Positions 25,695 to 43,079 of a stretch of 64,000 bases of DNA are shown one piece after another. Under the pieces are notes generated by a model. The model searched no databases. It worked only from the letters and a program-made list of their open reading frames with translations, and was not told the origin of the DNA. Location: contig JBITNC010000001.1 in NCBI GenBank assembly GCA_050084985.1, forward strand, positions 199,392,001-199,456,000, in the 5' to 3' direction. The position numbers and the translations under genes were made by a program. Numbering within the stretch: the first letter of the stretch is position 1; every line of letters begins with the position of its first letter. The stretch comes from Nageia nagi. Its lineage: Eukaryota > Plantae > Pinophyta.

Positions 25695-28642
25695 TATTCC
25701 TATTAATAATATATGCTATCATAGTATTTACACAAACTTAATAAGAATTTTTATCTCCTTAGTTTCAAGCATGCTCTTTACCTTTTCAACAATAATATGC
25801 TTCTTCCTCTCAACCATCCAATTTGGTTGAGGTGTATAGGAAGTTATAATCTACATCTTGATGCTATATTTATCATAAAAATACTTTAATTAAATAGAAT
25901 AATACTATCCACCATGGTTACTTCTTAAATACTTGATCTTATAACCACTTCCATTCTCTATATAATATTTGAAAGTCTTAAAAATACTTATAACATCATC
26001 CTTCTTATTCAAAAAATAAAACCAACATTTTAAAGAAAATTTATTAATAAAAGTTATGTCTAAGATAATTTACTAAAAATTTCAATTTGTATAGGAACAC
26101 AACTATCAGAATGAACAAGTTGGAGTCAATATGAAGCTCTCCATACCCTACCACTTGAAACCTTTTCTCTAATATGCTTGCCTTTTCTACACCCTTCATA
26201 AACTCATTTTGCTCCTCAAATTTAAGTGAGCCAAAAACCAACTTCTTGGTAGTCAACTATTTTAATCATTGAATATTTAAATGGCCATACCTCAAATGTG
26301 ATAATAAACTTTTATCTTTAATTGTAACATTAAACAAGTTACTCCCTTTATCTCCAATATTCAAGGGAAACATACAATTCCTTTCCATAGGAACAACTTT
26401 GTTCCCATGATTCTTATTATATATAATACATTGCTTAACATAAAAAATAATTTTATAATTATTTTCACATAGATACCCAACAATCAAAAAATTGTGTTTA
26501 AGAGTGAGAGTGTAATTAATATCATGAATATTTTTATTTCCTTCCTTTCTTTCCACATTTATCACTCCTTTTATTGCTACCTTAAAAGATTTGTTGTTAC
26601 CAAACTTGAACTTGATCTTATACTTATCATCCATGTTAGCAAATAAATAGGTGTTCCCTAGTGTTATCAAAGCAACCTGAATCCAAATATTAAGAAGTTT
26701 CTCAAGATGTTTGTTTAGCAAATTCATATGTTAAAAATAATTTTCTTAAATCTTCTTCATTCTCATTGGAATAATTTTATTTTTTTGTTAATTGGAAACT
26801 TTTACTCTATATATTTTTTTTAAATATCCATACCTTTTATAATGGTAATATTGGATATTTCTTTTATCAATTATTATCTTCCTTTAACAAAAAAAATTCT
26901 TATTCTTCTTCCTCTTGATATGTTTTAATTTTTTCCTCTTTCTTATCCTTGTGATCTTGAACCAACATCATCATTCTTTGAAACTTTCACCTTTGAGGCA
27001 ATACCTTTCTCATCACCTTCACTAAAGATGTATTTCAGTATATTTCATGTGACATGAGAGAATCAATGATATAATCAAATTTCAAAATATTCAAATCCTT
27101 TCTTTATTTAATGATAATGGGTAAATAGTTCAACCTAGGTGTTAGAGTTCTCAAAACTTTATTCACAATCATCTTCTTATTTTAACTTTTCTTCTAGAGT
27201 GTCCATTTTATTTACCATATCTTTAACTCTAACATAATATTCATTCATATTTAATAATTCTTGCACTCTCAAAATTCTAAAATATAATATTTGTAACTTA
27301 ACAATATTTATTTGATTATTATATTTATAAAATTTTTTCATATCCTTCCATAAATTCTTAGTTGATTTTGCATGTGCAATTCATGGAAATAAACTTTTAT
27401 CAAGAGTTAAGTGAATGTGGTACAATTCCAAAGAGTTTTTCTTTTTGGTCTAATTTTCTAATCTATCATTTTTATGGTATGGTGTTCCAATGCTCATCAT
27501 AACCAAAATAAACAATATCCCATTGATCTTTATCAGTAAATAAGGTCCTCATTTTGAGGATTCAATAATCATTATATTGTCCATTGAATGGTGAAATAGG
27601 GATAAAGATATTATTGTTAGCCATGATATTGAAATAAATAATAAATAAAGTTTTTCTTTAATTAAATTGCAACAAAACTTGATCAAAGTCTATAAATATC
27701 AATAAGATAACTTCTCTTTATCCCAAAACAAGTCAATATTTTCTACCAAATGCTATATTGTATAACCTCTATGTCAAATTTATTACAAGACTAGAATATT
27801 GGTATTATAGGAAAGAGTACTCAAAATATTAGTGTTTTAGGTATATTCACTTAGAAAGAAATGTTAGTATAGTTTGAAATTATCTATACCTTCATAAAAT
27901 AATAAATTTAAAGCATACTCAATACATATGCATAAGTGTTTTAAAAGACTTATATATTTAGATAGATATATAATTGTTTTATATCCTTTTAAATTCATGG
28001 ATTGTAGGATCTATCAAAATTTGTCCAAAAATATATCAATTAAGTATTTAAATGATTTTTTCTCACACAAATAAGTTGTATAATAAAATCATCAAACTTG
28101 TTTTGGTTATATTGGTTTAAAAATTTATGGATTGAGATATAATTACAAATACCTTTATAGGTTTATCTAATGTATTTATAGAGTGGGAAAGAAAAGAGAA
28201 AATGAGTCTCATCATCTATAGTATTTAGGTTACATAACTTACAAATTATTTTATCCCAAGTTAATTTTAGTATTTTCCATCTAGTAATTTCACTATATAG
28301 TTTGTGTGAATTACATTAGACCAAAAAGGGTTATTTGGGATGGTTTTACACCATCAACTAATATATTTTTTGGCAGCTATCCATCCATCGCCTATGATGT
28401 CGCCACCAAAAGTCCATTATCTATAGTGGCAACTCATAACCACCAGTATATAGTACCCAAAATGGCCACTTAATGTAAAAAAAAGTTGGATATAAACCAC
28501 CTCTTTATTAACTTATGATGATGGCTTAAATCGCCACTCAACCTACCTCATTATTCTTTTAAGTAATGGTTTTAGCTATACTAGATCTATGTCTTTATGC
28601 CAATGTTTATAACTATCACATAGTATTCACATTTTAAAAAAA

Positions 28643-28947
28643 AGTGGTGTATCATGAAATAATTCATCTAAGTTATGCTATCCTCTATTACCCTAGGCAC
28701 TCGAGCCTAATCATAGTGAGCCCAATTATGATGTTGTCCATAGGCTCTTGAAGGATGGCCCAATGGAGCTAACCTATTACTGTTAATAAATATATATATA
28801 TAGTGGTGTAGCATGGAAGAATTCTTCCAAGCTATGCTATCCTCGATTACCCTAGGCACTCAAGCCTAATCATAGTGAGCCCAATTACGATGTTGTCCAT
28901 GGGCTCTTGAAGGATGGCCCAATGGAGCTAACCTATTACTATTAATA
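28643..28947. repeat. Tandem duplication of a ~159-bp unit
   Basis: AGTGGTGT..CATG...GGCTCTTGAAGGATGGCCCAATGGAGCTAACCTATTACT starts at 28643 and 28802; each copy is followed by TA repeats. Confidence 0.9.
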
Positions 28948-29096
28948 TATATATATATATATATATATATAATACATACATACATACATACATACATACA
29001 TACATACATACATATATATATATATATATATATATATATATATATATATATTATATATATATATATATATATATATATATATATATATATATATAT
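28945..29096. repeat. (TA)n-(TACA)n-(TA)n compound microsatellite
   Basis: Direct reading. Confidence 0.95.
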
Positions 29097-40562: not shown

Positions 40563-40905
40563 AGTATTATGGTTATGAATGTTCTCATACATAAGAATCG
40601 ATATTTGTTTAACAAGATGCATAACGTAAACATAGCTTCATAGTCTGCAATGATTGCACAATACAATAAAATGATTTTTTTAAAAATTAAAGGCTCATAT
40701 ATACATAAAAAATATGTAAGAATAATAAAAAACTCGATATTTGTTTGAAAAGATGCATGATGTAATGATTGCCTGATATACAAAATGGGTTTTCTAAAAA
40801 TTAAAGACACATAAAACATATGGAAGAATAACACAAGACCCAAGATTTGTTTGATAAGATGCATGATGAAAATATAGTTTCATAGTCTGCAATGATTATA
40901 AGATT
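40563..40905 (+). pseudogene. Further repeated PPR S/P-motif fragments
   Basis: Three repeats of ..LF.KMH..NI.S(W).AMIA at ~40600, 40740 and 40845. Confidence 0.75.
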
Positions 40906-43079
40906 CAAAATGCAGAAAAATACAAAGCATAAACATTCAAAATGCAAAATAATACAAGCTCATGGATGAAGAATACAAGGTTATGAAGTGAAATACTTGC
41001 TACCATCTTGTCTTCCAATGTCCCCCCTCGTCTTGCCTTTGGTCTCGCCTCCTCTCCTTTCATAATCCCAAATGCCCCTCTCTTCTTACAACCCCCTCAT
41101 CTCAAAAAACTTGAAATGGTAAGAACATTCCTCTCCTATCGCAATAAAAAATGACCCTCTCTTCATCCAATCACCTCAGCTCAAAAAACTCAAAATGATG
41201 AGAACATTCCAAGTGCACTTAAGCTCCCTGTGCATGTCTTTTTTGTTTTTTTTTTCATTTTTGCTAAGGGGTGGGTTTTCACTACCTCATTAATTTTTTG
41301 GGGGCAATTTATACAACCATCACTTAAAATTAAAATTAGGGCAATTAAAAATTGCTACCCATAAATCACCTCAAATTACTTGCCTTCAATGCCCTTTTTT
41401 GGTCTAATGTTAGTTCTTAATTTTGCACTCATAAGTTTCTTTTTGAGACTAATAATATTATGTGGATACGAAGGATGCTCAAGTTTTGGATTAATGGTAT
41501 TTTAATACTAAGATAGTTTTATTTTATCTTTGATGTTATCATCACTCCCAAAATTTGAATTACTTTATTTGCAATTTGTGCTTCTAATTTATCACTTACA
41601 GAAGCGGTTATGTTTTTGTGTAAGCCCTAAAAATTAGCTACTTGTCAAAGTCTTTTAGCCAACCTCTTTTAAGAAATTGATGAGTTGAATAAGCTTGTTG
41701 GGTGACTACAAACAATCTAAGTTGATCTAACTTTGTTAGCTTATAATTGTATAATATATCATTTTAAAGCTTCACTTTCAATAGGAAGTAGACCAACTTC
41801 CATGAGAAGGATAGATATGGTGTGTTATTCTTAACTTTGAAATTATAAAAGATAAATTTGTTTAGTTTTATTCCAAATTTGTTGGGAAACACTTCCATCC
41901 TAAACTTCACAACCATAAAGTAATATCAAAGTTACAAGGCAAGAGAAAAGAGTTTTCTTTTTATCCCAATTCCAAAGTCCTAGATTTTTACATTTATTTT
42001 CTAAACCATAAAGGACTTTCCATCCAACATGGATTCTTTTTTCAACACTTAAATTCTAATTTAATTTGTGATTTATATCGATACCCAAGTATTTATAAGA
42101 GTGGACTATCTTTAAGGGTTGATTATTAAAAAGGATTGTGGGGTGGATAATAAATAGCATTTAGAGTTACAATTACAATTATAATTAAATTTACAATTTT
42201 GAATTGAATAACAAATTTGACATTTGTTTAAGATTAAAAAAAGGTTACAAATTTATCTTTTTCCTCCTTCATAAGCATCACCATTCTAACATACCCTTAT
42301 GAACCTGAACTTTGACTTCCTTAATTATTCTCACAACTTTATCTTTTTAATTTGTAAAGAAAGAATTTGAATTGAATATCATTAATCTTAGTAGAAGATA
42401 TTCATTTGAAACATATCAAATAAAAAAATCATTACAAATACCTTAAATCATGATAATGTTATATGATAAACTAATTTAATATTTTTTATATTTAAACCTT
42501 CTTTTTTATTTATTTCAAATGAACCATATCAGCAATACATAACCATTAAACTAAAAACGTTATTTATTTTAAAGGACCCACATAGATGTTACAAAATAAT
42601 CAAATCATAGGAAGAGTGTTGAGTTTTGAACTTAAACTTCAAGCATAACTTTTTAATATATTTATCTTAAATGGGACAACACAATAGTTCAAGCTTTGAT
42701 TCTTCTATAGGTTTCAAGTTTGAATCTTTGGATGGTTGTTCCAACATGTTGTAATTTGGTTATGATGTGTCTATCATTGTACTTTCCATCCACATTTTCC
42801 ATGTAGGTGGAGGAGACATTAAAAGTTTACCTTATTGGTGACTATAAGGGATTCTTAGAACAATTTGCCTCATGACTAAACCCAACAAAACTTTTCAAAA
42901 TATATATAATTTCTTGTATAGACAAATGAATGTTAAAACTTTTAAATTGAAAAAAGAAGATCTAAGATTCTAATCTCTTCTCCTTCGCATATTTTGAATA
43001 TGCTGAACTCAATCAATAATTTAACTTTCAAATAATTTTAATGAAAGAAAACACAACGAAATCTAATTCTATAATTTCC

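What the first reader, a model, noticed from the sequence alone, without database searches (positions are those of the whole stretch)
28314..41409. 13-kb CACTA element acting as a PPR-fragment carrier and shuffler, 2 kb upstream of an m6A demethylase gene
Seen: matching TIRs, an exact TTA TSD, a TnpA-like remnant, no TnpD motif that I could recognise, and both arms filled with PLS-class PPR pieces that are duplicated, fused and inverted. Known: Pack-type CACTA elements capture host gene fragments, and PLS PPRs are organellar RNA-editing factors that are greatly expanded in gymnosperms. Inference: this may be a family of mobile PPR-cargo elements that spreads or recombines PPR modules, or seeds PPR-silencing small RNAs. 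The motif style resembles cupressophyte PPRs as I recall them (unverified).
Basis: partly seen in the sequence, partly recalled or inferred. Interest (0 to 1): 0.8.

Follow-up and report, generated by a model that had tools for sequence, protein, structure and literature searches.

The report
Dead conifer transposon carrying PPR scraps
A 13-kb decayed cut-and-paste transposon in a conifer genome carries broken, tandemly repeated and inverted pieces of an RNA-editing-type (PPR) gene, which likely travelled with other copies of the same family; capture of gene fragments by transposons is a known process, and nothing here shows that it builds working genes.

Summary
The element is real. It spans 28314-41409 with 14/14 terminal inverted repeats (CATTA..., not CACTA) and a TTA duplication. 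It splits one LINE remnant in frame, and contig depth in relatives falls at the left junction. It holds the front half of a CACTA TnpA gene; no TnpD was found where scanned. PPR pieces are closest to Cryptomeria PLS proteins (47-52%) but cover only about 15% of the element: 1.6 kb of the right arm and about 0.4 kb of the left. A 111-bp array is an amplified S2/E1 junction, and the left pieces share its derived junctions, so rearrangement inside the element is supported. The S-P-L 'duplications' are mostly native PPR periodicity. The cargo is non-coding (9 stops in 141 codons; no purifying selection). Contigs of three other organisms cross a cargo edge or a chimeric junction at 81-83% identity, which suggests that paralogues share the cargo; no full second copy could be obtained. 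PPR-like depth is about 100-fold that of this family's ends, so this family is a minor carrier. The neighbouring gene starts 1,993 bp away; its ALKBH10B label is recalled, and no regulatory link was shown. Verdict: a new member of a known kind.

The parts
27996..28310 (-). Host LINE remnant, likely the C-terminal end of ORF2 (Cys/His motif), left of the insertion
   Evidence: High-copy in relatives: bin depth about 700 to 54,000 in X3/X5. The reading frame continues that of the right flank. The C-terminal motif is recalled, not matched by a tool.
28311..28313 (+). Target-site duplication TTA (left)
28314..28332 (+). Left terminal inverted repeat CATTAGACCAAAAA(GGG)
28333..28640 (.). Left subterminal region with loose short repeats (GTCGCCA/ATCGCCA/AAACCACC type)
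   Evidence: Motifs. Bin depth about 40-270 in X3/X5; 22-38 contigs at 28340-28349.
28643..28961 (.). 159-bp tandem duplication (92%) whose core is another, higher-copy repeat; followed by a (TA)n/(TACA)n tract at 28945-29096
   Evidence: depth 1,900-3,300 at 28699-28772
29109..29428 (.). 28-bp tandem array (about 11 copies) with dispersed copies at 30553 and 31165
29486..29526 (-). Short inverted PPR E1 piece carrying the array junction
30626..30821 (-). Inverted PPR S2/E1 piece: native S2 start, then the derived array junction; fused head-to-head with a plus-strand PPR motif piece
   Evidence: tblastn E 4e-6; 82-89% to right-arm units in its best matches; shared junction and 2-nt deletion with unit 2
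31230..31707 (+). Scattered S/P-motif scraps, including a 35-bp tandem repeat of the S-motif end
31930..32060 (-). Second inverted S2 piece with the same head-to-head inversion junction as the 30626 piece
36793..37360 (.). Nested 568-bp solo-LTR-like insertion (TG...CA, 5-bp duplication ATGAA)
   Evidence: Read from the sequence. 15, 14 and 2 contigs of X3, X5, X6 skip it (joints 36777/36782 to 37365).
37492..38080 (-). TnpA remnant, N-terminal half in two frames, preceded by a 24-bp repeat
   Evidence: E 4e-10 to Magnolia TnpA P0025; 62-66% to three unnamed short relatives; bin depth 500-1,860 in X3/X5
39090..39866 (+). PPR cargo: about 2.5 S-P-L triplets of a PLS-class gene, with stops and frameshifts
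39867..40574 (+). 111-bp x 6.4 tandem array made from the S2-end/E1-start junction of a PPR gene
   Evidence: pN/pS 1.7, no purifying selection
40587..40975 (+). Three S-motif scraps fused after the array
   Evidence: X3 record 15 and X5 record 19 span this fusion
40976..41390 (.). Right subterminal region (79-bp duplication, AATTGCC-type repeats)
   Evidence: depth 26-286 at the printed sites
41391..41409 (-). Right terminal inverted repeat
41410..41412 (+). Target-site duplication TTA (right)
41413..42145 (-). Host LINE remnant, C-terminal part of the reverse-transcriptase ORF
   Evidence: E 1e-24, 44% to a Taxus protein bearing PF00078; bin depth about 2,500-3,300 in X3/X5
43402..43900 (+). 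Exon 1 of the neighbouring gene (ALKBH10B-family by recalled motifs); exon 2 near 46597-46713. Not part of the element.
   Evidence: ATG 1,993 bp from the end; CpG o/e 0.8 against 0.15 in the element; an X1 contig of 2,145 nt matches 43488-43875 with 0 differences

Best explanation
This is a decayed CACTA-superfamily transposon, inserted into a LINE remnant, whose broken PPR gene pieces were likely captured once and then copied with part of its family rather than being turned into working genes. Shown: the ends, the target duplication, the split LINE, the TnpA half-gene, the PPR origin of the cargo, its fusions and inversions, and its decay. Inferred step 1: an ancestor lost its transposase ORF (TnpD) and gained 1.9 kb of PLS-PPR sequence at the 5' side of TnpA, probably as filler during repair of an excision gap or by fusion of neighbouring insertions. 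Inferred step 2: a chimeric S2/E1 junction was amplified by unequal exchange into the 111-bp array, and pieces of that module were copied, inverted, into the other arm. Inferred step 3: the derivative was moved in trans by an autonomous partner to tens of sites, one of them here. Inferred step 4: it was then methylated, collected a solo LTR and decayed. By the gymnosperm rate quoted in PMC13477047 the internal duplicates (82-89% alike) would be roughly 25-40 million years old, a rough figure that methyl-C decay may inflate.
For: Ends and TSD. LINE on both sides in one frame; depth falls from thousands to about 250 at the left junction; X3 record 13 and X6 record 30 stop aligning exactly at 28313. 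TnpA match. PPR identity. Shared derived junctions between arms. Decay: 9 stops in 141 codons, CpG o/e 0.12-0.15, pN/pS not below neutral. Shared cargo (unless noted): X6 record 30 aligns across the non-PPR/PPR edge (38993-39207) at 81%, while X6 is 99% alike, gaps aside, at unique DNA 42896-43255. X3 record 15 and X5 record 19 span the array-to-S-motif fusion at 83% and 81%, against 93-95% in the neighbouring gene's first intron. Depth at the cargo edge 39114 (248/259/25 in X3/X5/X6) is like that at 28349 (272/253/25), 37898 (346/350/29) and 41263 (286/268/11). 15, 14 and 2 contigs lack the solo LTR, so other copies of the TnpA region exist.
Against: No second full-length copy was seen: no genome is held, the metagenome scan gave 2 chance loci, and the junction pattern gave 0 matches in two collections not expected to hold conifers. 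The listed bridging contigs are 270-350 nt, so none links an end to the cargo. Depth between TnpA and the cargo drops to 12-36 at 38372-38651, and to 26 at 41142, so the matching depths come from printed sites only (40 of about 610 rows, 40 of 90), and the tool warns that depth is not copy number. The ends read CATTA, not CACTA, and TTA is also the typical PIF/Harbinger target. A TnpA continuation beyond the solo LTR was not better than shuffles. No reference protein spans the LINE junction.
Confidence: 0.65

Rival explanations
1. The CACTA is real, but the PPR module is a separate repeat (for example a Helitron-type or other non-autonomous carrier, or a PPR-derived minisatellite) that landed inside this copy or a few copies.
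For: PPR-like depth is 27,000-118,000 over 39271-40575 against a few hundred at the ends. Relatives show other head-to-tail E1-to-S2 joints (40232 to 39919, 40235 to 39920, depth 47-62), so such arrays are not unique to this element. Low-depth gaps separate the cargo from TnpA and from the right end. The element does collect nested inserts (solo LTR).
Against: X6 record 30 runs about 100 nt into non-PPR sequence that shares a short repeat with the TnpA 5' region (near 38900 and 38160, read). Edge depth matches end and TnpA depth at the printed sites. I saw no separate ends or duplication around the module, though I did not search for Helitron ends specifically. Both arms carry the same derived junctions.
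Confidence: 0.22
2. The family actively spreads or recombines PPR modules into new editing factors, or produces small RNAs that silence PPR genes.
For: Real fusions and inversions. Inverted copies at 82-89% could pair in a read-through transcript. Captured fragments act as siRNA sources in maize (PMC13317346, passage), and non-syntenic donor genes are more methylated in Platycladus (PMC13477047, section 12). Gymnosperm PLS-PPRs are expanded (PMC9545813, passages).
Against: The cargo has stops and frameshifts, no full E domain and no DYW piece. The array shows no purifying selection. The inverted arms are about 120 bp long and over 9 kb apart. The family is about 100-fold rarer than PPR-like sequence. 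No transposase was found in the scanned frames.
Confidence: 0.08
3. The end pair is a chance match, or belongs to a PIF/Harbinger element (TTA target), around unrelated repeats.
For: Some 14-bp inverted pair with a 3-bp duplication arises in 50 of 60 simulated windows. The ends are CATTA. PIF elements mostly have TTA/TAA targets (PMC8903248, passage).
Against: CACT/CATTA-starting pairs arose in 1 of 60. The pair coincides with the break in the LINE and with the depth step. The internal gene is CACTA TnpA. No PIF-type domain appeared in the scanned frames.
Confidence: 0.05

Closest known systems
Pack-CACTA elements (Catoni et al., PMC6379663, abstract and outline seen; packFinder survey PMC8903248, passages seen)
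   Same: CACTA-type ends, no working transposase found, captured and merged host coding fragments
   Different: It keeps half of TnpA, is 13 kb long, is old and decayed, and is in a conifer. The cargo comes from one gene family and has been turned into a tandem array. The ends read CATTA.
Chenopodium CACTA 'Jozin' elements with captured gene fragments and captured or generated satDNA arrays (PMC8978399, passages seen)
   Same: Gene fragments in the 5' part outside the element's coding sequence; tandem arrays inside the element; 3-bp duplication
   Different: That study centres on elements with transposase. Here the array is itself made of PPR coding sequence.
TE gene capture in gymnosperms (Platycladus genome, PMC13477047; abstract, section 12 and passages seen; two supplement files searched)
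   Same: On average about 482,000 TEs with captured exons per conifer genome; all major superfamilies capture
   Different: PPR is not mentioned in the text or the two held supplement files (0 hits); its examples are LTR elements. Supplementary tables that are not held may bear on this.
Cupressophyte PLS-class PPR editing factors (Cryptomeria P0002 and relatives; PMC9545813, passages seen)
   Same: S-P-L triplets of 101 residues, S2 and start of E1; 47-52% identity
   Different: Fragmentary and non-coding; no DYW piece

Membership tests
CACTA (En/Spm) superfamily | Short terminal inverted repeats | tested here: met
   14/14, 19 with one indel
CACTA (En/Spm) superfamily | Ends begin CACTA/CACTG | tested here: inconclusive
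   Both ends read CATTA: one C-to-T change from the motif. Whether this is a family variant or decay could not be read from the printed rows.
CACTA (En/Spm) superfamily | 3-bp target-site duplication | tested here: met
   TTA/TTA, at the break in the LINE
CACTA (En/Spm) superfamily | Subterminal direct and inverted repeats | tested here: inconclusive
   Only loose 6-9-nt motifs in 2-4 copies per end, not tested against chance
CACTA (En/Spm) superfamily | TnpA/ORF2 homology | tested here: met
   E 4e-10 to a protein with Transposase_24 and Transposase_23; N-terminal half only
Autonomous CACTA | TnpD transposase ORF | tested here: not met
   No Pfam TnpD domain in the frames scanned; limited sensitivity; plus strand of the middle not scanned
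Pack-CACTA | Host gene fragments between the ends | tested here: met
Pack-CACTA | Several copies with the same ends and cargo at different sites | tested here: inconclusive
   Ends recur and short contigs cross cargo junctions; no full second copy
Pack-CACTA | Fragments from more than one locus (common, not required) | not testable with these tools
   Donor genes need the genome. The left pieces derive from the same module as the right array.
PIF/Harbinger | TTA/TAA target | tested here: met
PIF/Harbinger | PIF-type transposase and Myb-like ORF | tested here: not met
   None in the scanned frames; the internal gene is TnpA
Functional PLS-PPR editing factor | Open frame with E and DYW domains | tested here: not met
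   Stops, frameshifts, only the E1 start

The most novel reading that the evidence does not exclude
Cupressaceae genomes hold PPR-derived fragments at repeat-like abundance (summed contig depth thousands of times single-copy depth, even for the once-per-gene S2/E1 junction), and a group of CACTA derivatives like this one is a main vehicle for them. Such elements would be the long-running engine and the small-RNA counterweight of the lineage-specific PLS-PPR expansion.
Probability: 0.12. Interest if true: 0.7.

Novelty: new member of a known kind. Interest (0 to 1): 0.36.

Why it matters
As it stands, it is a well-bounded example of Pack-type capture by a CACTA element in a conifer, with an unusual cargo: editing-factor sequence turned into a 111-bp in-frame array. 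Such cargo can be miscounted as PPR genes in conifer annotations. It would matter more if such carriers account for the very large pool of PPR-like fragments seen in the relatives' contigs, because the mechanism of gymnosperm PPR expansion is open. Nine literature searches listed no title or abstract opening on PPR-carrying CACTA elements in conifers. I opened six of the listed or cited papers, in part only, and most subscription papers are outside the library.

Tried and rejected
No whole genome is held, so the genome-wide copy search could not be run. A word-index protein search with the TnpA ORF found nothing among 38 candidates; the full HMMER search found 5 relatives. The metagenome scan with the TnpA alignment confirmed 2 of 225 stretches, both only a 47-bp match with no PPR or ends, rejected as chance. 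The array-junction pattern gave 0 matches in viral and prokaryote collections, which is uninformative for a conifer. No RNA holder was listed for 40600-44200, which is no evidence on expression. The listed X1 contigs laid on the cargo differ at 14-23% of letters and look like other PPR genes. Earlier findings of this scan: none in 4 look-ups. A TnpA continuation left of the solo LTR resembled TnpA by eye but did not beat shuffles in 9 frames. The Taxus LINE protein ends before the junction, so the exact native residues there were not tested. All three 3-bp controls keep the frame, so frame alone does not fix the duplication. The stop-free run in the array is expected from its codon make-up (neutral mean 1.4 stops, observed 1 in the 6 x 28 codons tested). 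The idea that the insertion sits in a Copia gag was rejected: the flanks are LINE. The DUF4218 Atlas hit for the neighbouring exon (score 0.94, recognition 1541 of 2300, 146 shared features) was treated as a weak lead only.
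Full report
Observation. The window holds CATTAGACCAAAAA at 28314 and its reverse complement ending at 41409, each flanked by TTA. A third match with one mismatch lies at 27442-27455 inside a Copia gag. Taken alone the pair is not overwhelming: 50 of 60 simulated windows held some 14-bp inverted pair with a 3-bp duplication, and 1 of 60 held one that starts CACT or CATTA.

The flanks settle the boundaries. 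The right flank, 41413-42145 on the minus strand, is a LINE reverse-transcriptase remnant (E 1e-24, 44% to a Taxus protein with PF00078). Its last frame runs up to the duplication, and the left flank continues in the same frame into a Cys/His motif that I recall as typical of LINE ORF2 ends. No reference protein spans that point. In contigs of two related organisms (X3, X5), bin depth is about 5,000 at 28181-28254, 700-1,000 at 28255-28291, and about 40-340 over the next 370 bp. One X3 and one X6 contig stop aligning exactly at 28313. The element is therefore very likely a real insertion of 13,096 bp into one LINE.

Superfamily. A minus-strand ORF at 37706-38020 has 5 relatives among 1.84 billion representatives. 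One is a Magnolia protein with Pfam Transposase_24 (E 9e-48) and Transposase_23; it aligns to 37945-37718 and 37605-37492 (E 4e-10). This is the N-terminal half of TnpA. No TnpD domain was found in the frames scanned with stops read as X, but Pfam also missed the TnpA remnant, so the absence is soft. A 568-bp TG...CA insertion with a 5-bp duplication interrupts the TnpA region at 36793-37360, and 15, 14 and 2 contigs of X3, X5 and X6 skip it. In many CACTA elements TnpD lies 5' of TnpA (recalled), which is where the PPR cargo sits here.

Cargo. The piece at 39082-39504 scores Pfam PPR_2 at E 1e-19. Of 20 database hits, the six from Cryptomeria are 47-52% identical and those named from other plants 28-42%. 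Eight of these proteins, searched against the whole window, map PPR sequence only between 29500 and 41029 at E below 0.3. The right arm has about 2.5 S-P-L triplets, then a 111-bp array of 6.4 units that is the end of motif S2 and the start of E1 joined head to tail by a short linker, then three S-motif scraps. The similarity between triplets is mostly native, as Cryptomeria triplets are similarly alike. The array and the fusions are not native. The left arm has only about 430 bp of recognisable PPR. The 30626 piece starts as native S2, then carries the array junction and the 2-nt deletion of unit 2. The 29486 piece also carries the junction. The 30626 and 31930 pieces share a head-to-head inversion join. 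The two arms thus draw on one chimeric module, rearranged inside the element or its family.

The cargo is dead. It has 9 stops in 141 codons. CpG o/e is 0.12 against 0.8 in the neighbouring exon. Among the six array units pN/pS is 1.7 against a neutral median of 0.72, on only 28 codons per unit.

Is the cargo shared? No genome is held, so I laid four public runs on 36400-44200 and 27700-28800 at 80% likeness. X1 matches the neighbouring exon with 0 differences over 388 nt. X6 is 99% alike, gaps aside, at unique upstream DNA. X3 and X5 are 93-95% alike in the first intron. Listed single contigs have depth about 4-9 in X3/X5 and 2-8 in X6. At printed sites the left subterminal region, TnpA, the cargo edge (39114) and the right subterminal region have similar summed depth, about 250-350 in X3/X5 and 11-29 in X6. 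Other printed sites are much lower (12-36 at 38372-38651, 26 at 41142, about 11 at 28584). One X6 contig aligns across the cargo edge at 81%. One X3 and one X5 contig align across the array-to-S fusion at 83% and 81%. These are too diverged to be easily orthologous, so paralogues with the same cargo junctions are likely. The contigs are short, however, and none ties cargo to an end; only 32 of about 139,000 pieces were printed. I put family-level sharing at about two in three.

Scale. Depth over the PPR triplets and the array is 27,000-118,000 in X3/X5, roughly 100 times that of this family's ends. The tool warns that this is not a copy number, and short overlapping contigs inflate it. Still, transcriptomes hold only 277-1,822 PLS proteins per gymnosperm (PMC9545813, passage). 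So these genomes appear to carry many more PPR-like fragments than genes, and this one family explains few of them.

Neighbouring gene. Its ATG is at 43402, 1,993 bp from the right end, with the LINE remnant and unique DNA between. The ALKBH10B-family label is recalled from exon 1-2 motifs; tools did not confirm it. No effect of the element on it was tested.

Comparison with the known. Pack-CACTA capture is established (PMC6379663 abstract; PMC8903248 passages; review PMC13317346 passages). CACTA elements with 5' gene fragments and internal tandem arrays are described in Chenopodium (PMC8978399 passages). Conifers average about 482,000 TEs with captured exons (PMC13477047 section 12); that paper has no PPR mention in its text or two held supplement files. 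The element works like a Pack-CACTA. As a member it meets the repeat, duplication, TnpA and cargo tests and is inconclusive on the terminal motif and on multi-copy cargo.

Verdict. The structure is real and well bounded. It is a new member of a known kind with an unusual PPR-derived array, and there is no sign that it makes working genes. Interest 0.36.

Noticed in passing
window 39793-40575: The once-per-gene S2/E1 junction has summed depth 27,000-49,000 in relatives X3/X5, thousands of times single-contig depth, and their contigs show other head-to-tail E1-to-S2 joints. PPR-derived repeats may be very abundant in these genomes.
   Followed up: partly
window 26044-27620, minus strand: Degenerate Copia-type gag and protease/integrase frames start about 400 bp left of the LINE remnant (label recalled from motifs).
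   Followed up: no
window 38450-39050, minus strand: A possible extra 5' coding stretch of TnpA, Lys/Glu/Asn-rich, with a weak PHD-like zinc-finger hit (zf-HC5HC2H, E 0.13, below cut-off).
   Followed up: no
window 51603-52338 and 57318-58064: An LTR pair (89%) around a minus-strand Gypsy-type gag-pol with a chromodomain-like end, apparently inside an intron of the neighbouring gene (labels recalled).
   Followed up: no
window 16725-17471 and 24943-25695; 375-546 and 8007-8177: Two further direct-repeat pairs (79% and 88%), probably LTRs of older retroelements.
   Followed up: no
window 60736-61932: LINE ORF1-like frames on the minus strand and a second open frame on the plus strand; no Pfam hit of note.
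   Followed up: no
window 28699-28772: The core of the 159-bp tandem unit is a separate repeat with depth 1,900-3,300 in X3/X5.
   Followed up: no
P0029: The Taxus database protein is a fusion of a LINE reverse transcriptase with what looks like a PRP31/Nop-domain gene, probably an annotation artefact.
   Followed up: no
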